Of a stretch of 64,000 bases of DNA, positions 38,281 through 54,111 are shown piece after piece (within the stretch, counting starts at the first letter, position 1; every line of letters starts with the position of its first letter). The DNA is from an uncultured Gammaproteobacteria bacterium (GTDB taxonomy: Bacteria > Patescibacteriota > Microgenomatia > Levybacterales > UBA12049): positions 9,210 through 73,209 of the forward strand of contig CAZRWL010000002.1 in the NCBI GenBank assembly GCA_964603935.1, written 5' to 3'. Below the pieces are notes generated by a model that was not told where the DNA came from, did not search any database, and worked only from the letters and a program-made list of their open reading frames with translations. The position numbers and the translations under genes were made by a program.

Positions 38281-38336
38281 ATGTTTTTAATCTCACCTAT
38301 CCTAACACCCAATTTTTCAAAAGTCAATGCAACAGT

Positions 38337-39629: not shown

Positions 39630-39635
39630 ACTTAT

Positions 39636-40028
39636 TTAAAAAGAAATAACGGGTTCTTTAAATCTTAAATCTATGCTTTTAAACGTCTTATCTTCTATTG
39701 TAAGCGCTCGCAGTATTCTTTGTAAAGAGGCTATTTGATTATCGATGTTTTTTTGAGAAGAAAGTTTAACTTGCCCATTATTCTGAATATTAATTACATA
39801 CGAAGAATCGAAAAAAGCAATGGAAGAAAATGAGATATTTTTTTCTTTCAGGATTTTTTCAATTTTTGCCGAATTTTCGCTTTTACCCAAAGGGGAAATA
39901 AGCTGCTGGTTTTTTAAAGAAAAAATTACATAAATAAAAAAACCTAAAAAAAGGAATAATTCAAATAGGAAAATCGTTTTTATTTTTTTCCTAAAAATCC
40001 TATTGCTGCGTTTTATCTTTACTAACAT
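39636..40028 (-). CDS. ftsQ: Minimal FtsQ/DivIB-like protein (N-terminal TM plus short POTRA-like region)
   Basis: 130 aa, single TM helix, located between murG and ftsA as ftsQ is in dcw clusters. Confidence 0.5.
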   Translation of the reverse strand: MLVKIKRSNRIFRKKIKTIFLFELFLFLGFFIYVIFSLKNQQLISPLGKSENSAKIEKILKEKNISFSSIAFFDSSYVINIQNNGQVKLSSQKNIDNQIASLQRILRALTIEDKTFKSIDLRFKEPVISF

Positions 40029-41127
40029 TATTAATTATACTTACGATATTTTGAGCCGCGTGCTTACCCGGTAAATTTTTTAATTCTTTTTTGTCTATTT
40101 TATAACTTCCTATGTTACGAAACATAAGTTTTACCGCTTGAAGTAATTTTTTAGAATCAAGTCCATTTTGGTGCAAAACGACAGATAACCCTATTTTTTC
40201 CAAAAACTTGGCATTTTTAAGCTGCTCGTTATTTTGAGAAAAGGGAAGCGGAATGAGAAGTGAAGGTTTCTCAAAATATAAAAGCTCTGTTATCGTATTC
40301 ATACCTGACCGCGCAATAACCAAAGAGGATGAATTTATCAAATCTCCAATTCCTGAAGGGTCAATGAATTTTTCCAAAAGATAATTGCCCCGAAGTTCTT
40401 CAGACATTGTATGCTTGAGTCTTTCCAGGCGGTCAAAATCTCGATATTCATGAGCGTCTCCTGTCTGATGAATAATGTTGTACGATTCCAGAAACTCTTT
40501 CAGCGCCCCTTCTATCAATACGTTGATTGCGTGGGATCCGGAACTTCCTCCCGTAATGTAAATTATTGGCAGTTTATTGTTAAAAACTGATTCTGCAATA
40601 GAAAATGGAGGATTTAAAATTTTAAATTTACGCACAGGATTTCCCGTAAAGACAACTTTATTTTTTGGAAAATATTTCCTGGAAGAATTCCATGATATGC
40701 AAATTTTTCTTGAGAATCGTGAGACAAGCCTGTTGGCAAGGCCTGCCTCCATAGTCTGCTCGTGTATAACAACAGGTATCTTGAGTATAGAGGCGCAAGG
40801 TATTACGGGAATAGAAACATACCCCCCAAACCCTACGACAACATCAGGTTTAAATTTAATTAAGATCAAAAAGGACTTAACGATCCCAAAGGGAAGTTTC
40901 AGCAGGGAAAAAAGAGTAAATCTGGTTAATTTTCTTTGCAGTCTTCCCGTATTCAATCCGACAAAGGGAATTTTTAATTTAGCAATTGTCTCATACTCAA
41001 GAGATAAAGCGTTATCTCCTTCCAAAGCATATTTTCTTCCGATAAAAAGTATTTTTGCATCTTTAGGTAAAGCATCTATCACCGCAAGCGCAGGAGATAA
41101 ATGTCCGCCAATTATCGCAACTTTCAT
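40000..41127 (-). CDS. murG: Undecaprenyldiphospho-muramoylpentapeptide beta-N-acetylglucosaminyltransferase MurG
   Basis: MKVAIIGGHLSPALAV ... ITGGSSGSHAIN. The ORF track extends to 41169 but the conserved N-terminus begins at the internal Met (41127). Confidence 0.8.
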   Translation of the reverse strand: MKVAIIGGHLSPALAVIDALPKDAKILFIGRKYALEGDNALSLEYETIAKLKIPFVGLNTGRLQRKLTRFTLFSLLKLPFGIVKSFLILIKFKPDVVVGFGGYVSIPVIPCASILKIPVVIHEQTMEAGLANRLVSRFSRKICISWNSSRKYFPKNKVVFTGNPVRKFKILNPPFSIAESVFNNKLPIIYITGGSSGSHAINVLIEGALKEFLESYNIIHQTGDAHEYRDFDRLERLKHTMSEELRGNYLLEKFIDPSGIGDLINSSSLVIARSGMNTITELLYFEKPSLLIPLPFSQNNEQLKNAKFLEKIGLSVVLHQNGLDSKKLLQAVKLMFRNIGSYKIDKKELKNLPGKHAAQNIVSIINNVSKDKTQQ

Positions 41128-42191
41128 ATTTTTTGTTTTGAAATATTCAATAATATCCCAACCGCGCAAAGATCAATAATTAATGCCGATCCTCCGTAAG
41201 AGATAAAAGGCAGAGGAATACCGGTTAACGGAACAAGAGCCGTTTGAGCGCCCAAATTGATTATGGTTTGCATTGCCAAAAAAGTTGTTATGCCCGCGGC
41301 CAGAAGTTTGCCAAAGTTATCTTTAGCATGCACTGCTATATAAAAACATTTTGTTATAATAAAAACATAAAATAAAACTAGACAAAATGCGCCTATAAAA
41401 CCCAGTTCTTCCGCGATGATTGCAAAAATTGAATCTGTTGTGCCTTCGGGAAGATAAGCATACTTCTGCAGCGAATTTCCCAGCCCAACACCTGTTATCC
41501 CACCGGATCCCAAAGCAATCAGAATTTGCCTCACATGATAAGATGACGCTTCAACCGATTGATTAATGTTAATAAACGCTTCAAGTCTCTTTGCCCTGTA
41601 AGGAGAAAGCTTTATGAATACATACCCCAAAAATGCCAGCATTGGCAATAACCAAGAAAAATGCAGTAGGCTTGCACCGGACAAAAAATAAATCACTACC
41701 GCTTCGCTTAAAATTACCGCCGCTGTCCCCATATCCGGCTCCAACATTACCAAACTCAAAACCAAACCAATCAATATAAGAAATGCAGGAAGTCTCCCCT
41801 TTTCTTTATTGGAAAACCATGCTGCCAAATAAATGGCAAGCGCAAGCTTGATAAATTCTGCTGGCTGGAGAACGAAAAATCCTGCGTCAATCCAGCGGTT
41901 TGCTCCCAAAAGACTAATCCCGACCCCGGGAATAAAAACCAAAATTAGCAAAACTAGTGCCATAAAAAGTATCGGAAGAGCAAAGAAGTATAGTTTATGA
42001 TAATCAAAAAAAGAAAAAAACCCTAATGCCGCAAATCCCAGCATGACCCAAAAAAATTGATCTTTAACGTAGTGGTATTTATCGGAAAAGTCCCTAAACG
42101 CAACATACGAAGAAACATCATAAATCATAAAAAGCCCAAAAAGAGTAAGGATTATAACCGAAAACAAAAGAAATATGTCTATCTTCTTCAT
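41124..42191 (-). CDS. ftsW: SEDS family cell division protein FtsW
   Basis: SEDS motifs (PEGTTDSIFAIIAEELGFIG), dcw context between mraY and murG. Confidence 0.8.
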   Translation of the reverse strand: MKKIDIFLLFSVIILTLFGLFMIYDVSSYVAFRDFSDKYHYVKDQFFWVMLGFAALGFFSFFDYHKLYFFALPILFMALVLLILVFIPGVGISLLGANRWIDAGFFVLQPAEFIKLALAIYLAAWFSNKEKGRLPAFLILIGLVLSLVMLEPDMGTAAVILSEAVVIYFLSGASLLHFSWLLPMLAFLGYVFIKLSPYRAKRLEAFININQSVEASSYHVRQILIALGSGGITGVGLGNSLQKYAYLPEGTTDSIFAIIAEELGFIGAFCLVLFYVFIITKCFYIAVHAKDNFGKLLAAGITTFLAMQTIINLGAQTALVPLTGIPLPFISYGGSALIIDLCAVGILLNISKQKI

Positions 42192-42209
42192 AGAAGAAAA
42201 TTTGAGCTG

Positions 42210-43253
42210 TTAGCGAATAAACGCTATATAAAGTCCTAGAATTGCAAAAAGAAATCCCAAAAGCCAGCCTCTCATAACAACTTTTGGCTCATTCCAGCCT
42301 ATTCTAAGCAGAAGCAAATGTAAAGGCGAAGCTAAAAACACTTTCCTATGCAGAAACTTTTTGGCCAAAATTTGAATAAGGGAAGACGAAATTTCCAAAA
42401 CAAATACTCCTCCAATAAATGCAAGGGCAATTACTTTTCCCGTCAAAAGTCCTATAATCGCTAAAATTGCTCCAAGAGACAAAGCTCCCACATCTCCAAG
42501 CCAAATTCTTGCTTTATAAATGTTAAAATACAGAAACGCTCCGACACTGCCCATCAATAATGCTATGAAAATTCCCAAAGGTTGATCGAGCTGATTGGAA
42601 GTAATTGCCAGAAATGCCGCAAGACAGATAAGAAGAAGTCCCGATGCCAACCCATCCAATCCATCGGCAATATTAAACGCATTAGCAAAAGCAACTATAA
42701 CAAAAGCTGCGAAAGGAATAAATAAAAAGCCAAGCGATGCCAAGCCAAAACCTCTGATAAAAATATAAGAATATCCCAGTTGATAATACAAAATTGAAGC
42801 CGCGGTAAGAGCCAATGCCCACTGGATTATGAATTTGTGCCTGAATCTTAAGCCAAAAAATGCTTTATTCCCGCTAACCAGCTTCTTTAAGTCATCATAA
42901 AATCCCAATGCGCCAAAACCTATAAAAGTAAACATAATTACAAATAATTCCCATGGATTAATATTCGTGCCTAATATTCCAAACGCCCAAAAGGTTAATA
43001 CGCAAACAACAGCGATAATCAATATTCCTCCGCCAAAAGGCGTACCTGCTTTCCAATTATTGTATTTATCAAAAGTGGGAGTGGGTTTATCGAACATGTC
43101 AACGGTTTTCTGCTTCGCTCTCCTAAACTTCATCTTATACAAAAAGTCTATAAAAGGTATTAGGAGAACTCCGGTTATAAAAAGCGATAAAAGGACAAGA
43201 CCCAAAAGCTGCGCCATAAAGGATATTATACTATCCTGAAGATTTATATACAA
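42210..43253 (-). CDS. mraY: Phospho-N-acetylmuramoyl-pentapeptide transferase MraY
   Basis: NAFNIADGLDGLASG motif, 10 TM helices. Confidence 0.9.
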   Translation of the reverse strand: MYINLQDSIISFMAQLLGLVLLSLFITGVLLIPFIDFLYKMKFRRAKQKTVDMFDKPTPTFDKYNNWKAGTPFGGGILIIAVVCVLTFWAFGILGTNINPWELFVIMFTFIGFGALGFYDDLKKLVSGNKAFFGLRFRHKFIIQWALALTAASILYYQLGYSYIFIRGFGLASLGFLFIPFAAFVIVAFANAFNIADGLDGLASGLLLICLAAFLAITSNQLDQPLGIFIALLMGSVGAFLYFNIYKARIWLGDVGALSLGAILAIIGLLTGKVIALAFIGGVFVLEISSSLIQILAKKFLHRKVFLASPLHLLLLRIGWNEPKVVMRGWLLGFLFAILGLYIAFIR

Positions 43254-43254
43254 A

Positions 43255-45018
43255 TTACTTGACTGTAACGGATTTTGCGAGGTTGCGGGGCTTGTCAGGA
43301 TCTTTAATTCCCCGCTTTAATGCTAAGTAATAAGCTAAAAGCTGGGAAATTACAATCTGCGGAATAATTGTCGCATCTCCAACATCAGAAGTTTTTAAAA
43401 ATCTGTCGAAAACATTATTATTTTTAGGCCCTACGCCTACGATAAATCCCCCTCGCGCTCTTATTTCCTGCGCATTGGAAACTATATCATCATATGTCTC
43501 ATCATTGGGAGCAAATACGATACAGGGTGTTCCTTTTTCAATAAGCGCAATGACTCCATGCTTTAATTCTCCGCCCGCAAAACCTTCCGCATGAATGCAT
43601 GCAGTTTCTTTTATTTTCAAAGTTGCTTCAAGCGCTGTTGCATAAGACAATCCCCGTCCTATAACGTATATGTGCTCTTTATTTTTTAATTGATCTGCTA
43701 CCTCTTTCAAATTCTTCTCAAATTTTTCTTTCAAAATCTCTTTCACGTTTTCCGACGCTCTTAATAGAAGATTTTTACCTTGTGTTTGTTTTTTTACCAA
43801 AGAATAAGCTGCCAGAATTAAAACAGATATCATAGCAATAAAAGATTTGGTTGCGATAACTGCTTTTTCCTGACCAGCTCCAAGAAGAATTTTATAATCT
43901 GCCTGCCTATACAAAGTGGACCCTAATACATTTACAATTGCGGCAATCTTGGCACCCTTCCTTTTGGCGTTAGTAACAGGGTCAACAACATCAATTGTTT
44001 CTCCGCTTTGAGAAATTGCAATCACCAAACTTCTGTCTGTCAAGTAATCTTCCAAATAATTGAATTCCGAACCAATCGTGAAATTAACGTGTTTTTTTGC
44101 GACTCTTGAAAAAAGGTAGGTTCCTGCCAGCGCGGAATATGAGGCAGTACCGCATCCAAGCATAAAAGTTCCAAAAGCGCTTTTAATTAATTTTGTGAGA
44201 TGATTTATTTCCGCTGTGTAATTAAGCGCTATATTTTCGATAACCCTTGGCTGTTCATTTATCTCCTTTAACAAAAAGTGCTCGTACTTTCCCCTCTCTG
44301 TTTCTTCAAATTTCCAGTCCAACGTATGAAAATTTGGCTTAATTTCTTCACCCCTTGGTAAACTTATAAGCTTTAGTTTTTCTCCAAGGATAACCATTTG
44401 ATTATCTTCAAGAAAAATCACTCTTTGCGTATACTTGACAATCGCGGAGGCATCGGACGCTACAAATAATTCGTTTTTCCCAATTCCAACCACAAGAGGG
44501 GATCCTGTCTTAGCTGCAACTATTTCTTTTGATACTGCGTTTACGACAACAACGGCATTTAGCCCTTTGAGAGCATTAAATGCGTCTCTGACTGAAGATG
44601 AAAAACCTTCGCGTTTGAGATTTTCCTCAACAAGATGCGGAATTACTTCCGTATCTGTTTCTGAAATAAACTTATGTCCGTTATCGATAAGTTTCTGTTT
44701 TAATTCCTGAAAATTTTCAACAATTCCATTATGAACAACTGCTATTGACTTCGCGCAATCAAGATGGGGATGGGAATTTCCGACAGTTACGCCCCCATGA
44801 GTCGCCCAACGGGTATGGCCAATTCCAAGAGGACTTGCCGGTAAATTTATCTTTGCGGAGCCTATTTTCCCAACATGCTTATCTATCTCCAGCCTCTTGT
44901 CTTTCTTAACTGCAACTCCCCAAGAGTCATAACCTCTGTATTCGAGAAGCTTTAATCCTTCAAGAACAATATTTGCCGCTTTATCCTGATGGCCGACATA
45001 TGCAAAAATTCCGCACAT
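43255..45018 (-). CDS. glmS: Glutamine--fructose-6-phosphate aminotransferase GlmS
   Basis: MCGIFAYVG N-terminal Cys amidotransferase, two SIS domains, C-terminal ...AKSVTVK. Confidence 0.9.
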   Translation of the reverse strand: MCGIFAYVGHQDKAANIVLEGLKLLEYRGYDSWGVAVKKDKRLEIDKHVGKIGSAKINLPASPLGIGHTRWATHGGVTVGNSHPHLDCAKSIAVVHNGIVENFQELKQKLIDNGHKFISETDTEVIPHLVEENLKREGFSSSVRDAFNALKGLNAVVVVNAVSKEIVAAKTGSPLVVGIGKNELFVASDASAIVKYTQRVIFLEDNQMVILGEKLKLISLPRGEEIKPNFHTLDWKFEETERGKYEHFLLKEINEQPRVIENIALNYTAEINHLTKLIKSAFGTFMLGCGTASYSALAGTYLFSRVAKKHVNFTIGSEFNYLEDYLTDRSLVIAISQSGETIDVVDPVTNAKRKGAKIAAIVNVLGSTLYRQADYKILLGAGQEKAVIATKSFIAMISVLILAAYSLVKKQTQGKNLLLRASENVKEILKEKFEKNLKEVADQLKNKEHIYVIGRGLSYATALEATLKIKETACIHAEGFAGGELKHGVIALIEKGTPCIVFAPNDETYDDIVSNAQEIRARGGFIVGVGPKNNNVFDRFLKTSDVGDATIIPQIVISQLLAYYLALKRGIKDPDKPRNLAKSVTVK

Positions 45019-45021
45019 AAA

Positions 45022-46749
45022 CTATGCTTTGCGAATAATCGAAAGTATATCCGATAAATTTTTAATTTCCGCATCGGGCTTAAATCCTTCTAATTCTTTT
45101 TGACTTTCCGCAAAAGGGCCGCGTTTAATCCAAATTGCAACAACAGAAGGCATTAACATTTTGGCATTATATAAAATCGTTAGCTTATCGTCTACCAAAA
45201 AAAATTCTCTTCCCGCATATTTATCCAAAACATGTTGTAAATTATCTTCTTTGGCAAGAAAAATGTGAACATCGTTTTCCTCAAAATGAGAATGAATAAA
45301 GGTCTTTTTGAGTTTACCCCTCTGAAAATTATTTTCTCCTTCAGAAAAAATCCCAATCTCTGCAAAATCTTTCATTTTCTCCAAAATACTTTTTACCTCA
45401 GCGTATAACCTATATTCCGTAAGTCCGCTTTTTTTAAAAGTCTTCGTATCAAAAAGCGTATAGTCAATATCAAAGAGTACAACCGGTTTCTTAACCTCTC
45501 TTTTGCTTACAATCTCTTTAAAAACCGTGTAATATTTTGTATTGTCCGAAATGTTGCCCATAACAGTTGTGCTTGCGCCCACAACAACATTTCTTCCGAT
45601 AATTACGCCAGGCATGGTTGTAACTTTTATTCCCATATTGCAATTTTCCCCAACCATAACGCCCAACATCTTAAGCATTGTGTCAGCTTTTTCCCCCTTA
45701 ACATCAACTTTAACATTTGCCCTGTCAAGCCTAACATTCGCAGTAAGGAAACCTGCCGCAATTTTGCAGTTTTGCCCAATTACGCTATCGCCTATATATC
45801 CCGAGTGAGTTGTTGAATTCCGCATCACAATGCTATTTTTAATTTCCATGTTTGCGCCAACAACCGCATTTCCCCCTATGTCCACTCCGCCTCTTAAAAC
45901 GGCGTTATTGCCAATGAAAGCATTTTCCCCAATGTAGCACGGTCCTTTTATAACAACGTTTTCCATTATGGAAACCCCATCGCCTATAAAGACCTCGCCG
46001 GCCAATTCAGCGCTTTTTGCTACAGATGAATTTTTGCCTACAAATTTTTCGACATTTTTTAAGAGGTAATTTTTGACATCCAGCAAATCCCACGGATATT
46101 TTAAAGTAATCAAATCATCTTTTGTTTCAACAAAAGTAACCATATTCTTTTTACAATATGCTGTAATTGCTTTTTCCAACTGATAGTGTTCCGGAGGCGT
46201 ATTTTTGAGTATTTTCAAGAAATCACAAGACAAAAGATAAATTCCAACCACGCACAAATTGGAAGGTTCTGTTCCTTTAGCTGGTTTTTCTGTAATTCCT
46301 AAAACTTGATTTTTTTCAAATTTCAAAACACCATGTATCTGTGTATTTTCTTTTTGCTTTACCAAAATAACAGCCTTTGATCTATTCGCTAACTTGCTCC
46401 TCGAAAGAGAATTAGCGAATCTATAAGCGTCAATTCTGTGAGCATTCAGTAATAAAAAATTTTCTTTTATTTTTTGTTCTGCCAAAAGCAAAGCGTTGCC
46501 GGCGCCCAAAGGCTCGGACTGAACAACATAATCTATCGATACTCCAAAATTTTTACCGTCCCCAAAGTATCCCTTAATTACGTTATCCTTGCCAACTATT
46601 AGCACTATCTTTTTTATATTTTCTTTTTTCAGCCCTTTAATGGTGTGCTCCAGAATGGGCTTACCCAAAACCCTTACCATTGATTTGTGGACGCTATTGA
46701 AAGGATGAAACCTTGATGATTCTCCCGCTGCCAAAATAATTGCTTGCAT
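45022..46749 (-). CDS. glmU: GlmU-like bifunctional sugar-1-phosphate nucleotidyltransferase / left-handed beta-helix acetyltransferase with an extra C-terminal HAD-like hydrolase domain (tripartite fusion)
   Basis: N-terminus AIILAAGESSRF (NTP-transferase). Middle hexapeptide repeats (IGDGVSI...IGENAFIGNNAVL...). C-terminal ~165 aa with HAD motifs I FDIDYTLFD, II IGIFSEG, III K, IV LVDDK. Confidence 0.7.
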   Translation of the reverse strand: MQAIILAAGESSRFHPFNSVHKSMVRVLGKPILEHTIKGLKKENIKKIVLIVGKDNVIKGYFGDGKNFGVSIDYVVQSEPLGAGNALLLAEQKIKENFLLLNAHRIDAYRFANSLSRSKLANRSKAVILVKQKENTQIHGVLKFEKNQVLGITEKPAKGTEPSNLCVVGIYLLSCDFLKILKNTPPEHYQLEKAITAYCKKNMVTFVETKDDLITLKYPWDLLDVKNYLLKNVEKFVGKNSSVAKSAELAGEVFIGDGVSIMENVVIKGPCYIGENAFIGNNAVLRGGVDIGGNAVVGANMEIKNSIVMRNSTTHSGYIGDSVIGQNCKIAAGFLTANVRLDRANVKVDVKGEKADTMLKMLGVMVGENCNMGIKVTTMPGVIIGRNVVVGASTTVMGNISDNTKYYTVFKEIVSKREVKKPVVLFDIDYTLFDTKTFKKSGLTEYRLYAEVKSILEKMKDFAEIGIFSEGENNFQRGKLKKTFIHSHFEENDVHIFLAKEDNLQHVLDKYAGREFFLVDDKLTILYNAKMLMPSVVAIWIKRGPFAESQKELEGFKPDAEIKNLSDILSIIRKA

Positions 46750-46762
46750 AATTTATCTCGCT

Positions 46763-48097
46763 TCAACTAACTTTCTTTATATCTGCTCCCAAACTCTTAA
46801 GTCTTTCTTCGAATTTTTCATATCCCCTGTCTAAGTGCTCTGCCCCAAAAATAACGCTTTCTCCCTTTGCTACTAATCCTGCCAATACGAGAGTTGCCCC
46901 TGCTCTCAAATCGGATATTTCAACAACGCCGTTATGTAATTTTGAAGGACCGGATATTTTTATTGCGTGAAAATAATCCAGATTCCGATCCTTAAGGTTA
47001 AAATTATAGACTCTTTCAGGATTCTTGACATCGGGATTGAAGAATGAAATATTAGCTCCCATTTTTTTAAGCTCCTTTACATAGCCAAAACGGCTTTCGT
47101 AAACTGTTTCGTGTATCAAAGACACGCCTTTTGCCTGCGTCATAAGAACAGCCCATGGACCTTGCCAATCTGTCATAAATCCAGGGTAATTTGACGTCTC
47201 AACATCAACGCCCGCCAACTCTCCTTTGTGGAAAAATCTTATTCCGTCCCTGCTCCTCGTTACTCCTCCTCCGACCAACTCAAGTCTTTGAATAAACGGC
47301 GAAAGATCAACATTCTGCGCACCTTTAATAAGCACATCTCCTTTTGTAATAACCGCTGCTATTGCCAAAGTAACAATTTCATTTCTGTCCGGCCCTATTG
47401 CAAATTCGGTTCCCATTAGCCTATCCACTCCATGTATGACAACTGTTCTTTCCTCTGTTCTTAGGATTTTAGCTCCCATCTGATTCAGGAGATTGATAAG
47501 CTCATCAACTTCAGGCTCTGCAGCAGCATTTTCCAATATTGTTTTCGTATCCTTCAGAAGTACCGCAACCATAATCAATGTTTCCGTACCCGTATGCGTG
47601 CTTTTTTCAAATTTATAGCATATTTCTTTTCTCCTTGAATTATCATTTCTTTTAAGGTAAAAAAAACCATCATTTCTTTTATACGAAACCGAATAGCCCA
47701 TTTTTTCAAGACCCTTTATTGTTCTGTCTATTGGCCTTGCGCCTATTCTGCATCCGCCGGGATTTGGAATAACTGCTTTTCCCACACGAGCTAATAACGG
47801 AGATAGAAACATAGCTGAAGTTCTTATTTTTGCAGCATCAATCAATGAAATTCTCTCCTTTTTAAATTGCTTCATACGGATACGCACAGCATGATCCGCA
47901 ATTTCTGCTTTTCCGCCTAATTCTCTTATTATCGCGATCATCACCATAAAATCAGAGATAAGAGGAACATTTTTTATAATCACTTCTTCGTCTGTCAGAC
48001 ATGCAGCAACCAAAGCTTTTAGAGCAACGTTTTTTGCCCCTGAAACCCCAATTGTGCCCACCAGCTTCTTCTCCCCGCTTACCATTATCTTTCCCAT
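46763..48097 (-). CDS. murA: UDP-N-acetylglucosamine 1-carboxyvinyltransferase MurA
   Basis: KLVGTIGVSGAKNVALKALVAACL N-terminus and EPSP-synthase-like fold length. Confidence 0.85.
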   Translation of the reverse strand: MGKIMVSGEKKLVGTIGVSGAKNVALKALVAACLTDEEVIIKNVPLISDFMVMIAIIRELGGKAEIADHAVRIRMKQFKKERISLIDAAKIRTSAMFLSPLLARVGKAVIPNPGGCRIGARPIDRTIKGLEKMGYSVSYKRNDGFFYLKRNDNSRRKEICYKFEKSTHTGTETLIMVAVLLKDTKTILENAAAEPEVDELINLLNQMGAKILRTEERTVVIHGVDRLMGTEFAIGPDRNEIVTLAIAAVITKGDVLIKGAQNVDLSPFIQRLELVGGGVTRSRDGIRFFHKGELAGVDVETSNYPGFMTDWQGPWAVLMTQAKGVSLIHETVYESRFGYVKELKKMGANISFFNPDVKNPERVYNFNLKDRNLDYFHAIKISGPSKLHNGVVEISDLRAGATLVLAGLVAKGESVIFGAEHLDRGYEKFEERLKSLGADIKKVS

Positions 48098-48102
48098 AAT
48101 TC

Positions 48103-49470
48103 TTAGTTCCTAACCCTTAATCCTTCGCTTATCTTATAAACATCCCCTGCGCCCATGGTAATAATTACAGTATTGCTCCCAAAGACTTGATTATTTACGT
48201 ATTTTATCACATCGGGAAGCGCAGGCAAAAATATAGCCTCTTTTCCTCTTGTTTTTATTTTTTCTGTCAAATTTTGCATTGAAACTGTCAAGTCAGGCTT
48301 TTCCCTTAGGGAGGAGTAAATATTGGTTAAAATTACAGCATTAACCTCATCAAATGCGGTAATAAATTGTTCGAACAATGATTTTGTTCTGGAATATGTA
48401 TGCGGCTGGAAAATACAGACTATTCTTGATCTTGGAAACTTTTCCCTAAAGGCTTTCAAAGTTTTTTTAATTTCGGTTGGATGATGAGCATAATCATCAA
48501 AGACTAATGCTCCCGAACTCAATGTTCCAACAAATTCCGATCTTCTTTTTGATCCTTTAAATCCCACTAATCCGTTTTTAATCTGCTCTCTTGACAAGCC
48601 AACTTCCAAGCCAACGATAAAAGCAGCTGTTGCGTTTAATCGATTGTGTTCTCCAAGAACAGAAAGTTCAACACCTTTTAAGACATCGCTTACAACATAA
48701 TCATTCTGCATTGCAGAACCATAAGTAATTTTTCTGCCTTTAAATTCGGAAAGTAGTTTTTTTACTTGAGGATCGTCTCCGCACGTAATCAAAATTCCGT
48801 CATGAGGCAGCTGATTGGCAAAAGCAAGAAATTTTTCCCGCGTGTCATCCAAAGAACTATAAGCATCGGGGTGGTCAAACTCTATATTCGTAATGACTGC
48901 AATTTTAGGATGCTGCCACATATGTTTTATAGTTTTGTCGTATACAGGCTCTGTCATGTATTCATCCGCTTCCGCTACGAAATAAACGCCTTTTCCGTAA
49001 TGTCCGGGCGCTCCAAGAGAAGCAGCGTTTGCAGTACCCATCAAAAAAGAAGGATCTTCTTCGCTTATCTTTAAAATTGTGGCAATCATGGCAGTAGTCG
49101 TTGTTTTTCCATGGGTTCCGGTTACAGAAATTCCCGTAAATTTTCTTCCAAAAATAGCTCCATCCATAAAAACCCCCACTGCTTCTCCTTGAGTCAAGAC
49201 TTTAATATTTTTTCTTCTTGCCTCCAACACCTCAACGTTATTAAATCCTCCATGCGCCCCAGTTGCAATAATTAAATCAGGACTTTTTATGTGATCTTTT
49301 GAAAACCCAACAAGAGGAATAATTTCTGTTTTTTTTAATGCCTCATCTGTAATAAATTCATCTGAGATGTCTGATCCTGAAACTTCAATGCCTGCTTCTT
49401 TCGCGATAATGGCCAAAGGCGTCATGCCAACCCCTTTTATTCCGACAAAATGTATTGATTTGACTTTCAT
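48103..49470 (-). CDS. murC: UDP-N-acetylmuramate--L-alanine ligase MurC
   Basis: IHFVGIKGVGMTPLAIIAKEAGIEVSGSD (MurC N-terminal signature), GTHGKTTTTAMI P-loop. Confidence 0.8.
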   Translation of the reverse strand: MKVKSIHFVGIKGVGMTPLAIIAKEAGIEVSGSDISDEFITDEALKKTEIIPLVGFSKDHIKSPDLIIATGAHGGFNNVEVLEARRKNIKVLTQGEAVGVFMDGAIFGRKFTGISVTGTHGKTTTTAMIATILKISEEDPSFLMGTANAASLGAPGHYGKGVYFVAEADEYMTEPVYDKTIKHMWQHPKIAVITNIEFDHPDAYSSLDDTREKFLAFANQLPHDGILITCGDDPQVKKLLSEFKGRKITYGSAMQNDYVVSDVLKGVELSVLGEHNRLNATAAFIVGLEVGLSREQIKNGLVGFKGSKRRSEFVGTLSSGALVFDDYAHHPTEIKKTLKAFREKFPRSRIVCIFQPHTYSRTKSLFEQFITAFDEVNAVILTNIYSSLREKPDLTVSMQNLTEKIKTRGKEAIFLPALPDVIKYVNNQVFGSNTVIITMGAGDVYKISEGLRVRN

Positions 49471-50657
49471 AAATGTTTATCGCTTATCGCTTTTCGCACA
49501 ACGCCATATTCGTCCCACGCAATTTCCCCATGCCCATAATTCATTGACTTCTCATGGGATTTCCCCGTAATAAGCACGATATCTCCCTTTTTTGCCATTT
49601 TAATTGCCGCTTCAATCGCTTTCTTTCTATCTGAAATTTTTAAAACTTTCTTTTTCCTTAATTCATGATTCACAATTCCTGATTCAATCTCTTCGTTAAT
49701 TTGATCTATAGACTCCGAGCGAGGGTCTTCCGATGTCAAAATAATAATGTCTGAATATTCGGAAGAAATTTTACCCATCATTGGCCGTTTGCTGGCATCT
49801 CTTTGTCCTGCCGAACCAAATACGTGAATTAGTCTGCCTTTTATGCTCGGCTTAATCGCTCTTAAAACTTGTTCAAATGCGTTAGGAGTATGCGCAAAAT
49901 CAATCATTACCGTAAAACTATTTTTATAAACTACATCTCCTCTCCCAAGAGGAGGCTTAAAAGTTTCTGTGCCTTTCCTAATATCTTCATCCGTTATTCC
50001 AAGCGCTTTGCAAGCAGAAATCGCAGCCAAAACATTGTACACATTAAACTCTCCAATCAGGCTTGTCTCAAATGGAAAATTTCCCGGAGTTATGTCTGCG
50101 CCTTTCATTCCATAAGTTCTCAATTTTGAATTTTGAATTTTGAATTTTGAATTAAACAAAACGTATGACTTATCGTCTCTGTTCGTGATTGCAGCTTTAC
50201 TCATTTTAAAAAGTTTTGCTTTTGTTTTGACGTAATTTTCGTAGGTTTTGTGATAATCCAAGTGCTCATGCGTAACATTGGTCAAGACTCCAACTTCATA
50301 CTTAATTCCAAAAACCCTATGCTGGTCTAACGCATGCGAAGTAGTTTCTAAAACCAGAAACTGCGCTCCCGATCTTACTGCTTTTTTAATAAATTTTTGG
50401 ACAGCAAAAGATGAAGGGGTGGTAACATGAAAACCAACATCGTAATCTTTTCCGCCAATCATTGCCCCGACAGAAGTAACCATAGACGCATTAAATCCGG
50501 CTGAATTTAAAATGTGATAAATTAAGCTAGTTGTAGTTGTTTTCCCATCCGTTCCTGTAACGCCTATGATTGTTAGTTTTCTTGAAGGGAATCTAAACCA
50601 AATATTTGAGATTATCGCAACCCCCAGATGATAAACATTCTTCGTTCTCTGCCACAC
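49467..50657 (-). CDS. murE: UDP-N-acetylmuramoyl-tripeptide synthetase MurE-like Mur ligase (short N-terminus)
   Basis: IGVTGTDGKTTTTSLI, TNVTHEHLDYH, DFAHTPNAFEQV, GSAGQRD, SEDPRSE match MurE motifs (DHLDYH, DYAHTPDAL, GGDRD, DNPR). Confidence 0.7.
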   Translation of the reverse strand: MWQRTKNVYHLGVAIISNIWFRFPSRKLTIIGVTGTDGKTTTTSLIYHILNSAGFNASMVTSVGAMIGGKDYDVGFHVTTPSSFAVQKFIKKAVRSGAQFLVLETTSHALDQHRVFGIKYEVGVLTNVTHEHLDYHKTYENYVKTKAKLFKMSKAAITNRDDKSYVLFNSKFKIQNSKLRTYGMKGADITPGNFPFETSLIGEFNVYNVLAAISACKALGITDEDIRKGTETFKPPLGRGDVVYKNSFTVMIDFAHTPNAFEQVLRAIKPSIKGRLIHVFGSAGQRDASKRPMMGKISSEYSDIIILTSEDPRSESIDQINEEIESGIVNHELRKKKVLKISDRKKAIEAAIKMAKKGDIVLITGKSHEKSMNYGHGEIAWDEYGVVRKAISDKHL

Positions 50658-50695
50658 AACTATATATTATACGCTTTCTTATCGTTATTCTCCAG

Positions 50696-52373
50696 TTATT
50701 CGTTGGGAGGAACACCGTAGTAGGAAAGAAGGTCTTTTGCAATATCGAAAAATAAAGGAGCTGCGGTTTCTGCTGCGTAAATCGAAGTTGTTGGTTTGTT
50801 CAAGATTACAAGCATTATGAATTTGGGCTTTTCTGCCGGCGCGTAACCTATAAATGAAGTTATCGTATTTGTCGGATCATAATGTCCGGCAACAGGAATC
50901 GATGCTGTACCTGTTTTACCCGCAATCCTATAACCTTTAAGCCTCGCCCATTGAGCCTCTCCTTTCTCAAGCATTTACCAAAATTTCCGTCATGACTTTC
51001 GCTGTTTTACTCGTTACAGGAGTCCCTTTAATTTTTACAGGTATTTTGGACACTTCTCTATTCTCATTTTCAAAAGCAGACACAACATGAGGCTCTAATA
51101 TTTTCCCGTTATTTGCAAGAGCCGAAAAAGCAGTTAATAGCTCTATCGGGGTAACAGAAACTCCCTGTCCAAAACCGGTAGTTGCCAAATCAACAGGATA
51201 CCAGGTGTTTTTGGACTTAAGAGGCGGAGCAATTTCTCCTTGCAAGTCAATACCCGTAGCATTACCTATTCCAAAACGAGTAAGGTATGAAATCATCCTG
51301 TCTACTCCGAGTTTTTGCGCAACATATACCATTCCCGTATTATCCGAATGCTGGATGACCTCAATCATATTTGTATCTTTATAATATTTGTCATTCCATG
51401 TATGCAAACTATAATCTCCAATAATTATCGGTCTGCCGCAAATATTGCATTTGGTTTGCGGTGTAATAAGACCTGCGTCCAAGGCAGAAGCCATTATAAT
51501 AGGCTTGAGAGTTGAACCCGGCTCATAGGCATCAACAATGAATGGATTCTTATACAAGCTTTGGTCATACTCCCAATATTTTTCAGGAGCAAAGGAGGGT
51601 AAAGAAACCATTGCGAGAATATTTCCCGTTGCCGGCTCCATAATCCCAATCATTCCGCCTAACGCCCCGTATTTTTCTATTCCTTCTTTTAGTTTTTTCT
51701 CCGCTAAAAACTGTATTGACCTATCTACGCTTAAAACCAAATTGTTTCCATTTGATCCGCTTAAGTTTTCTCTCCTCTTGGACAAAATGGGCCTTCCCAG
51801 GGCATCGTGCAATTCTACAACATGTCCTTCCTTACCCCTTAAAAGCCTGTCGTAATATCCTTCAATTCCAACGCTACCCCTACTCTCTCCTTCTTCATTT
51901 TTTCCAACAAAACCTATTAAATGCGCAGCTGTGGATGCTTCCGGATAAAGACGCGTAAACCGTTCTTCAAATCCCATGCCGGGAAGATTCATTTTCTCTA
52001 TTTCTTCCTTTGTAAAAGCATCTATTCCAGACTTTACAGGAACCCACAATTTATTAGATGAGAGCAAGGAACTTACAGAAGCAATATCTATATCAAGAAG
52101 AGATGAAAGCAAGCTGATTGTTTTGTTTTTATTTTTTACTTCTGCTGGATTGGCAAACAAAAGGTAAGATATTTTATTTGTTACTATCGGAAATCCGTCG
52201 GATGTTTTTATTTCTCCTCTTTTTGGCAAAATTTTTAAAACTCCGCTATACTGCAACTTGGCCAATTCGGAAAGCATTTCCGCCTTAACAACTTGCCAAT
52301 AGAATAAACGGCCTATCACGCAAACGAAAAATATTATAAAGATTGCAAAAACGAAGGGATAACGCCATTTCAT
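50696..52373 (-). CDS. ftsI: FtsI / class B penicillin-binding protein (transpeptidase). The reading frame is interrupted by a +1 shift at 50967-50974.
   Basis: The listed ORFs 50967-52373 and 50696-50974 overlap by 8 nt. The long ORF carries STLK (SxxK) and SDN (SxN). The short downstream ORF carries AGKTGTA (KTG). Together they form one PBP. Confidence 0.7.
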
Positions 52374-52657
52374 CGTTTAACAGCCAGCGATACTGATGTT
52401 TTAAGAACCATTAATGGAGAATCTTCCTTAACAAAGCCCAACTCTACTGCTTTGTTCGCTATATAAGTAAGAGAAGAGAAGGTTAGGAGTTTTTCGGACA
52501 GAATAGCGTTTTGTGTTTCATAGTAATCTACTTTATCTTCAAGTTTACCTACAAATACGCCTGACGTTGACAGCCTATTGTAGGCTACTGATTTAACAAC
52601 AGAAAGAACAATGGTTAAACCTATTAAAAATAGTATTAATAAATACGGCTTTTTCAT
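52370..52657 (-). CDS. ftsL: Cell division protein FtsL-like (single TM, coiled coil)
   Basis: 95 aa, N-terminal TM helix, position between rsmH and ftsI. Confidence 0.6.
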   Translation of the reverse strand: MKKPYLLILFLIGLTIVLSVVKSVAYNRLSTSGVFVGKLEDKVDYYETQNAILSEKLLTFSSLTYIANKAVELGFVKEDSPLMVLKTSVSLAVKR

Positions 52658-52666
52658 AAGTATGAC

Positions 52667-53542: not shown

Positions 53543-53981
53543 GCTTTATCTTTTGTTCTTTATTAATCAGCTTATCTGAAATCTTATCAATGTTTTTTTC
53601 AAGATCAAGTCTGTATGCTTCCCAATTTTCTTTGTCCCACATCTCAACGTATCGCGACAATCCTAAGAATACAACTTCTGTTTTAATTTTTGCAAAACGT
53701 CGCAAGTAGTCAGGTATAATAAACCTTCCCTTAGAATCAAGCTCGACGAATGTTGCCCCTCCAAGAAGGTAACGTTGAGTCTCACGGGCAGGTTTCTCAA
53801 TAAACGGTCTGCCTTCTGTTCCTTCCAAAAGAGCCTTCCATCCTTCTTCCGATACGACAATGAGTGAATTTTCATATCCCAAAGTTACAATTAGTTTACT
53901 GCCAACAATTTCTCTTAATTTTTTGGGGAAAGCCACTCTGCTTTTTTCTCCGACTTTCCCCTCGTATTGTCCAAGTAACAT
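53535..53981 (-). CDS. mraZ: Transcriptional regulator MraZ
   Basis: MLLGQYEGKVGEKSRVAFPKKLRE and a second DSKGRFIIPDYLR repeat (two MraZ half-domains). The start is set at the internal Met because AGGTGG lies 7 nt upstream and the length is then 148 aa. The ORF track start of 54032 is less likely. Confidence 0.8.
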   Translation of the reverse strand: MLLGQYEGKVGEKSRVAFPKKLREIVGSKLIVTLGYENSLIVVSEEGWKALLEGTEGRPFIEKPARETQRYLLGGATFVELDSKGRFIIPDYLRRFAKIKTEVVFLGLSRYVEMWDKENWEAYRLDLEKNIDKISDKLINKEQKIKHE

Positions 53982-54111
53982 ATCCTGCCCACCTTTTCCC
54001 ACTTTATCCCACTTATTATCATTTTGAGCCATTTTAAGCCTGATGTCAAGAGGAAAATGACCATAATAGCGTACTGTAAAACAAAAAAACGCAAGATGTA
54101 GTTGTTAGAAG

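What the first reader, a model, noticed from the sequence alone, without database searches (positions are those of the whole stretch)
45022..46749. GlmU-like nucleotidyltransferase/acetyltransferase carrying an extra C-terminal HAD domain, embedded with glmS and murA inside the dcw cluster
The protein has an NTP-transferase domain, a left-handed beta-helix acetyltransferase domain and a ~165-aa C-terminal domain with all four HAD motifs (DIDYT, S in IGIFSEG, K, LVDDK). The fusion of a HAD domain to a GlmU-type enzyme is unusual. The gene sits between glmS and murA, so the cluster encodes GlmS, GlmU and MurA but no GlmM phosphoglucosamine mutase. HAD enzymes include phosphomutases such as beta-phosphoglucomutase. 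One hypothesis is that the HAD module supplies the missing GlcN-6-P to GlcN-1-P step, or acts as a proofreading sugar-phosphate phosphatase. That would make this single polypeptide carry three consecutive UDP-GlcNAc pathway activities.
Basis: partly seen in the sequence, partly recalled or inferred. Interest (0 to 1): 0.6.

Follow-up and report, generated by a model that had tools for sequence, protein, structure and literature searches.

The report
GlmU enzyme fused to HAD domain
A cell-wall precursor enzyme (GlmU) of an ultra-small Levybacteria bacterium really does carry an extra HAD phosphatase-type domain; this domain always sits exactly where the pathway's "missing" phosphate-shifting enzyme would be, but whether it does that job is still unproven.

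Summary
The gene lies on the minus strand (45022-46749) and encodes 575 aa. Residues 1-404 are an archaeal-type GlmU, with a nucleotidyltransferase domain and a left-handed beta-helix acetyltransferase domain. A short flexible linker follows, then a roughly 155-aa HAD domain with all four catalytic motifs.

The fusion is not an assembly error. At least 63 fused homologues (40-87% identity) come from many independent assemblies, and fusion or fission has happened repeatedly.

In about 150 related Levybacteria/Patescibacteria loci the same HAD family sits immediately after the acetyltransferase gene. It usually sits immediately before glmS. This holds whether the HAD is fused or separate, capped or cap-less, and whether the acetyltransferase is beta-helix or GNAT type. 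The order murC-murB-murA-NTase-AcT-HAD-glmS mirrors the pathway, which puts the HAD at the GlmM position. No GlmM-type mutase lies near any of these clusters.

The beta-phosphoglucomutase analogy is not supported. The domain has no cap, and its closest relatives are uncharacterised or phosphatase-type HAD-IA proteins (PDB 2p11, NANP).

I could not test whether a canonical glmM exists elsewhere in the genome.

Best reading (about 0.45): a dedicated hexosamine-phosphate phosphotransferase bridging GlmS and GlmU, acting either as a mutase or as the phosphatase half of a bypass.

It is a new variant of a known kind, of moderate to high interest.

The parts
45022..46749 (-). Whole gene: archaeal-type GlmU fused to a cap-less HAD domain (575 aa plus stop)
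   Evidence: ORF list and translation. Identical protein in GCA_016204565.1. P0121 is 100% identical and is annotated by NCBI as 'NTP transferase domain-containing protein [Candidatus Levybacteria bacterium]'.
46075..46749 (-). Sugar-1-phosphate nucleotidyltransferase domain (aa 1-225); conserved R13 and K22, and the EKP motif at 154-156
   Evidence: Pfam PF00483 at residues 3-202, E 3e-26. TIGR03992. Alignment to ST0452. Invariant columns in A2/A3.
45538..46062 (-). Left-handed beta-helix acetyltransferase domain (aa 230-404); H315 aligns with an ST0452 His, and N338/R340/D342/R343 are invariant
   Evidence: Pfam Hexapep and LbH_EIF2B. ST0452 alignment 'THSGYIGDS' against 'PHLSYVGDS'. Invariant columns. 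H315 coordinates.
45487..45537 (-). Inter-domain linker (aa 405-421); corresponds to the C-terminal tail of unfused GlmU plus a few residues
   Evidence: The only low-confidence stretch in the full-length model is residues 411-420, mean pLDDT 58. Linker length varies from roughly 5 to 45 aa among fused homologues, and unfused GlmU proteins end exactly here.
45025..45486 (-). HAD-superfamily Rossmannoid domain without a cap (aa 422-575)
   Evidence: AF2 model pLDDT 92, pTM 0.86. Foldseek to 2p11, PH1655, YfnB and NANP with the cap region unmatched. In the profile-versus-PDB search, 2p11 scored 3e-13 and about 67 residues of 2p11 had no counterpart.
45457..45471 (-). HAD motif I, D427-I-D429-Y-T431 (nucleophile Asp and Asp+2 general acid/base)
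   Evidence: Invariant in 65 of 65 family members. Present in all 63 fused homologues. Coordinates.
45343..45345 (-). HAD motif II, S469 (in GIFSEG)
   Evidence: Invariant column S65 of A1. Coordinates.
45250..45252 (-). HAD motif III, K500
   Evidence: Invariant column K96 of A1. Coordinates.
45187..45192 (-). HAD motif IV, D520-D521 (LVDDK; Mg2+ ligands)
   Evidence: D116 is nearly invariant and D117 invariant in A1. Coordinates.
43255..45018 (-). glmS (glutamine-fructose-6-P aminotransferase), starting 3 nt after the fusion gene's stop
   Evidence: Pfam GATase_6/7 plus two SIS domains. N-terminus MCGIF. Spacing.
46763..48097 (-). murA (UDP-GlcNAc enolpyruvyl transferase), ending 13 nt upstream of the fusion gene
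   Evidence: Pfam EPSP_synthase, E 2e-75. Spacing.
37162..54032 (-). Surrounding dcw cluster: mraZ, mraW, ftsL-like, ftsI, two Mur ligases, murA, glmU-HAD, glmS, mraY, ftsW, murG, a 130-aa ORF, ftsA, ftsZ
   Evidence: Pfam scans. Gene calls on the NCBI contig.

Best explanation
The gene encodes a three-domain enzyme of UDP-GlcNAc synthesis in a Levybacteria (Patescibacteria/CPR) bacterium.

Shown:
- The N-terminal 404 residues are a bona fide archaeal-type GlmU. It would catalyse GlcN-1-P N-acetylation and GlcNAc-1-P uridylylation.
- The C-terminal roughly 155 residues are a catalytically intact HAD phosphoryl-transfer domain. It derives from a C1-capped HAD-IA lineage and has lost its cap.
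- This HAD family is a dedicated fourth component of a lineage-specific operon, glmS - HAD - acetyltransferase - nucleotidyltransferase - murA.
- The fusion arises simply by read-through between two adjacent, often overlapping genes, and it has occurred repeatedly.

Inferred:
- The HAD acts on the hexosamine phosphate made by GlmS. It supplies the step between GlmS (GlcN-6-P) and the acetyltransferase/uridylyltransferase (sugar-1-P), the step that GlmM performs in other bacteria.
- Asp427 would take the phosphoryl group, with Asp429 as acid/base.
- The outcome would be one of two things. The first is net 6-P to 1-P transfer, a mutase with the tethered or partner acetyltransferase shielding the open active site. 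The second is hydrolysis of the 6-phosphate as the first half of a phosphatase-plus-anomeric-kinase bypass, like MupP/AmgK/MurU.
- Tethering to the C-terminal end of the beta-helix would place the HAD next to the acetyltransferase. That this end adjoins the acetyltransferase site is assumed from what I recall of ST0452 and was not tested.
For: 1. Both halves look functional. TIGR03992 scores above its cutoff, and the GlmU columns aligned with ST0452, including H315, are invariant. All four HAD motifs are invariant across 65 members. Both domains fold confidently.

2. A genome scan seeded with the HAD returned 80 species-level genomes. Wherever the upstream gene is visible it belongs to the UDP-GlcNAc module. 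It is an acetyltransferase in all but L073, where a short NTase precedes the HAD, and the outlier L091. The acetyltransferase is whole GlmU, split LbH, or GNAT. The downstream gene is glmS in 54 of the 63 loci in which a recognised gene follows the HAD.

3. In an unbiased scan seeded with GlmU only, the counts were 48 loci HAD+ glmS+, 9 HAD+ glmS-, 9 HAD- glmS- and 2 HAD- glmS+ (the last two with a different gene order). Fisher p = 4e-5, uncorrected for phylogeny. The pattern is nested, glmS within HAD within GlmU. That is what is expected if the HAD acts between GlmS and GlmU.

4. The gene order murC-murB-murA-NTase-AcT-HAD-glmS is the exact reverse of the pathway order, with the HAD at the mutase slot.

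5. Fusion and fission are recurrent, with at least 11 changes on a rough NJ tree. Fused forms occur with both capped and cap-less HADs.

6. No alpha-D-phosphohexomutase gene lies in the window or within 6-10 kb of the cluster in about 170 loci (the B. subtilis query was validated).

7. A distant capped homologue in an Acidobacteriota contig sits between MurQ etherase, a NagK-like kinase and a transporter. That is again an amino-sugar-6-phosphate context. The closest characterised sequence relative, NANP, dephosphorylates an N-acetyl amino sugar phosphate.

8. Precedent exists. MupP is a HAD 6-phosphatase that, together with AmgK and MurU, replaces a mutase step on the route to UDP-MurNAc (PMC5371407).
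Against: - I could not examine any whole genome, so a canonical glmM may well exist elsewhere. The window also encodes a ManC-like GDP-mannose pyrophosphorylase. That implies some phosphomannomutase in the genome.
- From general knowledge of the superfamily, both known HAD mutase families (beta-PGM and eukaryotic PMM) depend on a cap that encloses the bisphosphate intermediate. This domain has none. Where orthologues keep a cap, it is poorly conserved and has no invariant basic residue.
- There is no specific sequence or fold affinity to beta-PGM or PMM.
- No anomeric kinase was seen near the cluster, so the bypass version lacks its second enzyme.
- The linker is flexible and the whole-protein pTM is only 0.71, so no fixed interface with the acetyltransferase is predicted.
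- About 13% of GlmU loci have no adjacent HAD, and some HAD loci have no adjacent glmS.
- If the GNAT variants acetylate GlcN-6-P (GNA1-like; one search is ambiguous), the HAD would have to accept different substrates in different genomes.
Confidence: 0.45

Rival explanations
1. The HAD is an ordinary hydrolytic sugar-phosphate phosphatase. It would act as a safety valve or proofreader for the pathway, for example by dephosphorylating excess or toxic GlcN-6-P/GlcNAc-6-P, or mis-made sugar phosphates. A canonical GlmM elsewhere in the genome would perform the mutase step.
For: The closest relatives are phosphatases (NANP, YjjG/YfnB, phosphoglycolate phosphatase-like). From general knowledge of the superfamily, a cap-less open active site favours hydrolysis. 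The window has no glmS ribozyme, so another means of controlling GlcN-6-P would be useful. HAD presence correlates with adjacent glmS.
Against: Welding a phosphatase that destroys the pathway's own intermediate onto the next enzyme is counter-intuitive, as is keeping it in nearly every operon of a genome of about 0.7 Mb. The HAD persists in 9 of 57 HAD-positive loci that have no adjacent glmS. Its position exactly at the mutase slot, and the recurrent fusion to GlmU rather than to GlmS, are not explained.
Confidence: 0.27
2. The HAD removes a by-product of the GlmU or cell-wall reactions and does not touch the hexosamine. It could be an inorganic pyrophosphatase that pulls the uridylyltransferase reaction (like HAD-type PpaX/BT2127), or a UMP/nucleotide phosphatase (NagD/YjjG-like).
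For: The NTase releases PPi, and a fusion would place a PPase next to its source. There are weak NCBIfam hits to YjjG-type nucleotidases (E 1e-3 for the window domain, 2e-7 for a stand-alone homologue) and a marginal PpaX hit (E 0.11). The HAD is always adjacent to the NTase/AcT genes.
Against: The HAD does not track GlmU unconditionally. Nine GlmU loci lack it, and in the usual gene order its presence follows glmS. No BT2127 or PpaX structure appeared among the best profile or fold hits. One fused-type genome already carries a separate PpaX-like HAD in the same cluster (L011, 170 bits). The distant homologue's MurQ/NagK context points to amino-sugar phosphates.
Confidence: 0.15
3. The HAD is the 6-phosphatase of a kinase-first route modelled on GmhB: GlcN-6-P to GlcN-1,6-bisphosphate (by an unidentified anomeric kinase) to GlcN-1-P (by the HAD) to GlmU. 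This copies the heptose pathway GmhA/HddA/GmhB/HddC.
For: From established knowledge of the ADP/GDP-heptose pathway, GmhB is a small cap-less HAD that works immediately before a nucleotidyltransferase. The architecture and position of the HAD here are analogous. The distal 1-phosphate could be bound by the conserved K479, K542 and R543 (inference).
Against: No kinase is conserved in or near the operon. The only HAD-IIIA match is the generic TIGR01662 domain model at E 0.011, below its cutoff. GmhB structures are not among the listed sequence or fold hits.
Confidence: 0.08
4. The fusion is an assembly or frameshift artefact, or the HAD part is a decaying, non-functional appendage.
For: In most relatives the HAD is a separate gene, sometimes overlapping the glmU stop by 4 nt. 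A single base error could therefore fuse them.
Against: There are 63 fused proteins at 40-87% identity from many independent assemblies, including species-representative genomes. The catalytic motifs are invariant in the fused forms. The domain folds confidently.
Confidence: 0.02

Closest known systems
Archaeal-type bifunctional GlmU (Sulfolobus tokodaii ST0452; NCBIfam TIGR03992)
   Same: Residues 1-404 have the same two-domain NTase plus LbH architecture and score above the family cutoff. The aligned GlmU columns, including the His at 315, are invariant in this lineage.
   Different: ST0452 and other described members end after the beta-helix tail. Here a HAD domain follows. The host is a bacterium (Levybacteria), not an archaeon.
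BXE_B1342 of Burkholderia xenovorans (PDB 2p11), an uncharacterised HAD-IA hydrolase; also PH1655 (2hoq)
   Same: It is the best sequence-profile match (E 3e-13) and the best fold match (E 1e-9). It shares the signature stretches G-D/E-x3-FQ-x2-K and VDDKL-x-IL.
   Different: 2p11 has a C1 cap of about 67 residues that is missing here. Its function is unknown, so it gives no functional transfer.
N-acylneuraminate-9-phosphatase (NANP/HDHD4) and the TIGR02253 'CTE7' / YjjG-YfnB subfamilies of HAD-IA
   Same: These are the closest characterised relatives by profile (NANP E 4e-5; TIGR02253 4e-6 to 1.5e-11). NANP hydrolyses the terminal phosphate of an N-acetyl amino sugar.
   Different: All scores are far below the family cutoffs. 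These enzymes are capped, stand-alone hydrolases and are not linked to GlmU or GlmS.
MupP + AmgK + MurU (Pseudomonas anabolic MurNAc recycling)
   Same: A HAD phosphatase acting on an amino-sugar 6-phosphate, feeding a GlmU-like uridylyltransferase, replaces a missing mutase step (PMC5371407).
   Different: MupP is a capped phosphoglycolate-phosphatase-like HAD. The window domain does not hit its NCBIfam model. Neither its pathway partner AmgK (an anomeric kinase) nor any equivalent was found near these clusters. MupP is not fused to the transferase.
HAD-superfamily phosphomutases: beta-phosphoglucomutase (C1 cap) and eukaryotic phosphomannomutase (C2b cap)
   Same: They have the same catalytic scaffold (DxD nucleophile and acid/base, Ser/Thr, Lys, acidic motif IV). 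They show that HAD enzymes can move a phosphate between C6 and C1 of a hexose. T. brucei PMM even substitutes for a missing PGM (PMC3465800).
   Different: From general knowledge, both need a cap to hold the bisphosphate intermediate. This domain has none, and neither family appears among its significant sequence hits.
GlmM (phosphoglucosamine mutase, alpha-D-phosphohexomutase superfamily)
   Same: Only the inferred pathway position, between GlmS and GlmU.
   Different: Fold, size (about 450 aa, four domains) and mechanism (phosphoserine) are unrelated. There is no sequence similarity.
GmhB (D,D-heptose 1,7-bisphosphate phosphatase) with HddC/HldE nucleotidyltransferases
   Same: A small cap-less HAD acting just before a sugar-1-P nucleotidyltransferase in a nucleotide-sugar pathway that starts with a SIS-domain enzyme (established pathway knowledge).
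   Different: It belongs to a different HAD subfamily (IIIA). It needs an upstream anomeric kinase, which was not found here. The substrate class is different.

Membership tests
Archaeal-type GlmU (TIGR03992, ST0452-like) | Whole-protein score above the curated cutoff, covering both the NTase and LbH halves | tested here: met
   319.4 bits against a cutoff of 292.1; residues 1-396 match model positions 1-393.
Archaeal-type GlmU (TIGR03992, ST0452-like) | Catalytic residues of both active sites (NTase G-x-x-R...K and EKP; acetyltransferase His and the N/R/D cluster) | tested here: met
   R13, K22, E154-K155-P156, H315, N338, R340, D342 and R343 are invariant or nearly so in A2/A3. They align with ST0452. 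Which of these are the catalytic residues is taken from memory of the ST0452 literature.
Archaeal-type GlmU (TIGR03992, ST0452-like) | Enzymatic activity on GlcN-1-P / GlcNAc-1-P | not testable with these tools
   Requires biochemistry.
HAD superfamily | Four motifs: DxDx(T/V), S/T, K, and an acidic DD/GDxxxD | tested here: met
   D427/D429/T431, S469, K500 and D520/D521 are invariant across 65 members.
HAD superfamily | Rossmannoid alpha/beta core fold | tested here: met
   AF2 pLDDT 92. In Foldseek, 102 PDB chains reached E <= 1e-3, and all 50 listed are HAD-superfamily proteins.
Beta-phosphoglucomutase family (TIGR01990 / TIGR02009) | C1 four-helix cap inserted after motif I, and a family-level sequence match | tested here: not met
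   Only about 20 residues separate motif I from the helix that precedes motif II, and the model shows no cap. No NCBIfam bPGM hit was found at E <= 1. The best beta-PGM-like structure (3e58) ranks only 27th, with the cap unmatched.
Cap-less (C0-type) HAD architecture | No insertion at either the C1 or the C2 cap site | tested here: met
   The secondary-structure string of the model is core only. About 67 residues of 2p11 have no counterpart. Caveat: orthologues of about 220 aa in the same operon position retain a C1 cap. The cap-less state is therefore a secondary loss within a HAD-IA lineage. It is not membership of the classical IIIA/IIIC groups (TIGR01681 scored 23.7 bits against a 35.75-bit cutoff).
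MupP (MurNAc-6-P phosphatase, NF009696) | Family-level sequence match | tested here: not met
   Not among the hits for the window domain. A different HAD in L011 and L164 does hit it weakly.
HAD-type inorganic pyrophosphatase (PpaX NF009804; BT2127-like NF053653) | Family-level sequence match | tested here: not met
   PpaX scored E 0.11 over 26 C-terminal residues only. There was no BT2127-type hit.
GlmM / alpha-D-phosphohexomutase | Four-domain fold with the phosphoserine loop (T/S)(A)SHNP | tested here: not met
   The protein has no similarity to this family. No such gene lies in the window or in about 170 related loci.
Functional GlmM replacement (non-orthologous displacement) | Absence of canonical glmM from genomes that carry the HAD, and its presence in relatives that lack the HAD | not testable with these tools
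   Only 6-10 kb of flank could be read. No paper or supplement that I found reports glmM in Levybacteria.

The most novel reading that the evidence does not exclude
The cap-less HAD domain is a new kind of phosphoglucosamine (or phospho-N-acetylglucosamine) mutase that has displaced GlmM in Levybacteria and their relatives. The fused protein would then carry out three consecutive steps (GlcN-6-P to GlcN-1-P to GlcNAc-1-P to UDP-GlcNAc) on one polypeptide, with the acetyltransferase trimer serving as the missing cap.
Probability: 0.25. Interest if true: 0.8.

Novelty: new variant of a known kind. Interest (0 to 1): 0.55.

Why it matters
UDP-GlcNAc synthesis (GlmS, GlmM, GlmU) is regarded as near-universal and essential in bacteria, and it is a drug-target pathway.

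This work shows a whole candidate phylum in which a HAD-family gene is a fixed fourth member of the pathway operon, repeatedly welded to GlmU. That is an undescribed piece of core cell-wall metabolism in CPR bacteria.

If the HAD replaces GlmM, it would be a new non-orthologous displacement of an essential enzyme. It would also be a third, cap-less type of HAD sugar-phosphate mutase and a natural three-step fusion enzyme useful for UDP-GlcNAc biocatalysis.

If it is instead a pathway-coupled phosphatase, it would reveal a new way of controlling hexosamine-phosphate pools in organisms that have neither the glmS ribozyme nor GlmY/Z. Either outcome also corrects the current annotation ('NTP transferase domain-containing protein', 'hypothetical protein', 'FMN phosphatase YigB').

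The hypothesis can be tested directly with one recombinant protein and one genome-content comparison.

Tried and rejected
1. Sequencing-error fusion: rejected. There are 63 fused homologues, independent assemblies and conserved motifs.

2. Beta-PGM-like classification: rejected. There is no cap and no family hit.

3. Other Rosetta-stone fusions of the HAD. A profile search against 1.84 billion representatives found only stand-alone cap-less, stand-alone capped and GlmU-fused forms. The odd lengths were fragments or an adjacent LAGLIDADG element.

4. In-situ displacement, meaning a glmM or a kinase occupying the HAD slot in relatives without the HAD: none found. The slot holds mraY, a Mur ligase, a CofD/GlmR-like gene or PFOR.

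5. glmM near the cluster: none in the window or in about 170 loci.

6. Extending the window's genome through edge proteins gave only short Logan contigs.

7. Literature searches for glmM in CPR/Levybacteria, or for a described GlmU-HAD fusion, found nothing relevant. TM7x is reported to lack UDP-GlcNAc synthesis altogether.

8. glmS ribozyme in the window: absent.

10. The full-length AF2 model gave no confident inter-domain packing (pTM 0.71, flexible linker). It therefore neither supports nor excludes capping by the beta-helix.

11. The third large homology search was left unused. No query could be built that would rank a Levybacteria GlmM among the 120 listed hits.


Full report
OBSERVATION. 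The ORF at 45022-46749 is real, lies on the minus strand, starts with ATG and encodes 575 residues. Residues 1-396 match the NCBIfam model for archaeal-type bifunctional GlmU (TIGR03992) at 319 bits, above its 292-bit cutoff. They also match Pfam NTP_transferase and Hexapep. The best solved relative is ST0452 of Sulfolobus tokodaii, E 1e-46 over residues 1-389. The columns aligned with ST0452, including R13, K22, the EKP motif at 154-156, H315 and the cluster N338/R340/D342/R343, are invariant in the lineage.

As a single sequence the C-terminal part gives only sub-threshold HAD hits. A profile of 65 family members hits HAD structures clearly, with 2p11 at E 3e-13. The AlphaFold model (pLDDT 92, pTM 0.86) is a HAD Rossmannoid core. 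murA ends 13 nt upstream, and glmS (starting MCGIF) begins 3 nt downstream. The trio is embedded in an mraZ-to-ftsZ dcw cluster. The window is 35% G+C and comes from a Candidatus Levybacteria MAG, GCA_016204565.1.

THE FUSION IS GENUINE AND RECURRENT. Among the 120 best homologues of the full protein, 63 are fused proteins of 572-647 aa with 40-87% identity and 99-100% coverage. They come from NCBI, JGI, ENA and Logan assemblies. The other 57 are unfused GlmU proteins of 403-422 aa. Unfused proteins end exactly at the junction (...YYTKFxEIVxKK). Fused proteins continue through a linker of variable length, roughly 5 to 45 residues. In the full-length model the only low-confidence stretch is 411-420, and the pTM is 0.71, so the HAD is flexibly tethered. 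On a rough NJ tree of the GlmU parts, at least 11 changes between the fused and unfused states are needed. Fused forms exist with both cap-less and capped HAD domains (P0183, P0374). Because the two genes are adjacent and often overlap by a few bases, fusion by loss of the stop codon is easy.

THE HAD FAMILY. The 120 best homologues of the C-terminal domain alone are all stand-alone proteins of 154-204 aa with 50-61% identity. A profile search of 1.84 billion cluster representatives found 1,723 members at E <= 1e-3 and 114 at E <= 1e-30. They have only three architectures: cap-less alone (about 155-165 aa), capped alone (about 215-230 aa) and GlmU-fused. Capped members carry an insertion of about 62-67 residues at the C1 position, just after motif I. 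That insertion is poorly conserved and has no invariant basic residue. The family is therefore a HAD-IA lineage in which the cap has been lost in most Levybacteria. Its nearest solved relatives are the uncharacterised BXE_B1342 (2p11) and PH1655, followed by YfnB/YjjG-type nucleotidases, NANP and phosphoglycolate-phosphatase-like proteins. A putative beta-PGM ranks only 27th in the fold search. Beta-PGM and PMM are absent from the profile hits.

GENOMIC CONTEXT: THE KEY RESULT. A scan of one genome per GTDB species with the HAD profile returned 80 loci. Almost all are from Levybacteria/Levyibacteriota or unclassified Patescibacteria, and they include the complete chromosome CP066685.1. In every locus where the upstream gene is visible, except the distant Acidobacteriota hit L091, the HAD follows a gene of the UDP-GlcNAc module. 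That gene is an acetyltransferase in all but L073, where a short NTase precedes the HAD. The downstream gene is glmS in 54 of the 63 loci in which a recognised gene follows the HAD. The partner genes vary:
- whole archaeal-type GlmU, fused or separate;
- a bacterial-type GlmU N-domain of about 245 aa (PDB GlmU E 1e-35; TIGR01173 2e-59) plus a split beta-helix protein of about 212 aa;
- the same short NTase plus a GNAT acetyltransferase of about 145 aa.

The HAD is constant across all of these. The order murC-(murB)-murA-NTase-AcT-HAD-glmS is the exact reverse of the biochemical order. That places the HAD where the GlcN-6-P to GlcN-1-P step belongs.

To avoid ascertainment bias I repeated the scan in metagenomes with a GlmU-only alignment. 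Of 68 loci that could be judged, 48 have HAD and adjacent glmS, 9 have HAD but no adjacent glmS, and 9 have neither. Two have glmS but no HAD, and those two have a different gene order. Fisher p = 4e-5, not corrected for phylogeny. The nested pattern (glmS implies HAD implies GlmU) is what a step lying between GlmS and GlmU would produce. In loci without glmS, the slot holds a CofD/YvcK(GlmR)-like gene, mraY or a Mur ligase. I found no glmM and no sugar kinase in that slot.

No alpha-D-phosphohexomutase is encoded in the window or within 6-10 kb of the cluster in about 170 loci. This rests on a motif scan and on phmmer with E. coli GlmM and with B. subtilis GlmM, the latter checked against PDB GlmM structures.

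The one distant homologue outside the CPR (L091, Acidobacteriota, 26% identity, capped) lies between a MurNAc-6-P etherase (390 bits), a NagK-like kinase and a solute symporter. That is again amino-sugar-6-phosphate metabolism.

INTERPRETATION. What is shown:
- a functional-looking GlmU;
- a catalytically intact HAD phosphotransferase domain;
- a very strong, architecture-independent linkage of that HAD to the GlmS/acetyltransferase/uridylyltransferase module.

What is inferred is its reaction. The most economical reading is that it handles the hexosamine phosphate between GlmS and GlmU. In that case the partner acetyltransferase would have to shield the open active site, because no cap exists. 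Alternatively it could be a 6-phosphatase, the first half of a two-step bypass for which MupP/AmgK/MurU is a direct precedent (PMC5371407). HAD-type hexose-phosphate mutases do exist, and T. brucei PMM substitutes for a missing PGM (PMC3465800).

Several points count against the mutase version:
- there is no cap, and capped orthologues have an unconserved cap;
- the closest relatives are phosphatase-like;
- the linker is flexible;
- the genome may encode a GlmM or PMM elsewhere, and the ManC-like gene at 62231-63292 implies some phosphomannomutase.

Against the bypass version, no anomeric kinase was seen.

Rival readings cannot be excluded. These are a GlcN-6-P overflow or proofreading phosphatase, a PPase or nucleotidase that pulls the GlmU reaction, and a GmhB-like bisphosphate phosphatase. 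Each fits the neighbourhood pattern less well. A by-product remover should track GlmU and not glmS. A safety valve would not be expected to persist without glmS, or to fuse repeatedly to the next enzyme.

NOVELTY AND VERDICT. I found no description of this architecture or of the HAD's operon membership. Databases call these proteins 'NTP transferase domain-containing protein', 'hypothetical protein' or 'FMN phosphatase YigB'. Both domains belong to well-known superfamilies, so this is a new variant of a known kind: a lineage-wide, recurrently fused HAD module in the UDP-GlcNAc pathway. The pathway link is strongly supported. The beta-PGM analogy is not supported, and the 'three consecutive activities' claim remains open (about 0.25). 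I rate interest at 0.55. The finding is a concrete and cheaply testable hypothesis about an essential pathway in a poorly understood phylum.

Noticed in passing
L005:4823-6480; also L002-L007, L015, L018, L019, L034, L040, L041, L044, L050, L062, L068, L069, L087, L090: Many Levybacteria replace the whole GlmU with a truncated bacterial-type GlmU uridylyltransferase domain (about 245 aa) plus a small GNAT acetyltransferase (about 145 aa). The GNAT weakly resembles eukaryotic GNA1 (Arabidopsis 3t90, E 2.5e-6). This hints at a eukaryote-like order of steps, with acetylation at the 6-phosphate stage, in some CPR bacteria.
   Followed up: partly
L049:8642-10038; also L025, L047, L052, L053, L054, L065, L083: These loci have a split GlmU. 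A short bacterial-type NTase gene is followed by a separate beta-helix acetyltransferase gene of about 212 aa that resembles the C-terminal half of archaeal GlmU. Some loci (L072, L076, L079, L082) carry both the short NTase and a complete archaeal-type GlmU.
   Followed up: partly
L009:11374-12366; also L025, L032, L064, L073, L102-L104, L107, L156, L127: A CofD/YvcK-like gene sits directly after the HAD or GlmU, often in place of glmS. It belongs to the family of B. subtilis GlmR, a UDP-GlcNAc-sensing activator of GlmS (PMC6171935).
   Followed up: no
L111:4238-7501, L112:7737-11000 (1087 aa); L090:6690-9500 (936 aa); P0346: Some glmS genes are about 350-500 codons too long, which suggests an intein or another insertion. 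One HAD representative (P0346) has a LAGLIDADG homing-endonuclease fragment at its N-terminus.
   Followed up: no
L164:7543-8190 and L011:3780-4424 (minus strand): Two relatives carry a second, ordinary capped HAD-IA gene in the same cluster. One is a beta-PGM-family hydrolase-like gene between glmU and the pathway HAD (TIGR02009, 1e-30, below cutoff). The other is PpaX-like (170 bits against a 218-bit cutoff).
   Followed up: partly
window 56405-57121 (-) and 57060-57707 (+): Two overlapping, oppositely oriented ORFs both carry IS200-like Y1 transposase domains. This is an odd arrangement next to a His/Pro-type tRNA synthetase gene.
   Followed up: no
window 423-24738 and 33979-35286: A very large envelope-glycan locus. 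It contains at least six PMT_2/GT-C-type membrane glycosyltransferases, several GT2/GT4 enzymes, two zinc-finger C-methyltransferases (Methyltransf_13/14), an O-antigen ligase-like protein and a flippase. This is unexpectedly rich for a reduced CPR genome.
   Followed up: no
window 15333-17003 (-), 31075-33543 (+), 54112-54570 (-), 58589-59041 (+): Long ORFs (556, 822, 152 and 150 aa) with no Pfam match at E <= 1e-5.
   Followed up: no
window 37162-54032: The dcw cluster in this window holds only two Mur-ligase genes (396 and 455 aa) and no murB, whereas several relatives have murB between murC and murA (for example L008, L028). A second FtsW/RodA paralogue lies at 26920-27996.
   Followed up: no
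L012, L017, L019-L022, L026, L027 and others (record titles): Many TPA metagenome-assembled genomes titled 'uncultured Gammaproteobacteria bacterium' carry typical Levybacteria dcw/GlmU-HAD loci. Their taxonomic labels appear to be wrong.
   Followed up: no
window about 36038: The NCBI contig JACQKM010000006.1 (41,095 bp) that carries the identical gene ends at about this window position. The window continues beyond it, and the protein database records a longer contig of 88,534 bp. The window therefore comes from a different, longer assembly of the same organism. No junction artefact is visible in the sequence.
   Followed up: partly
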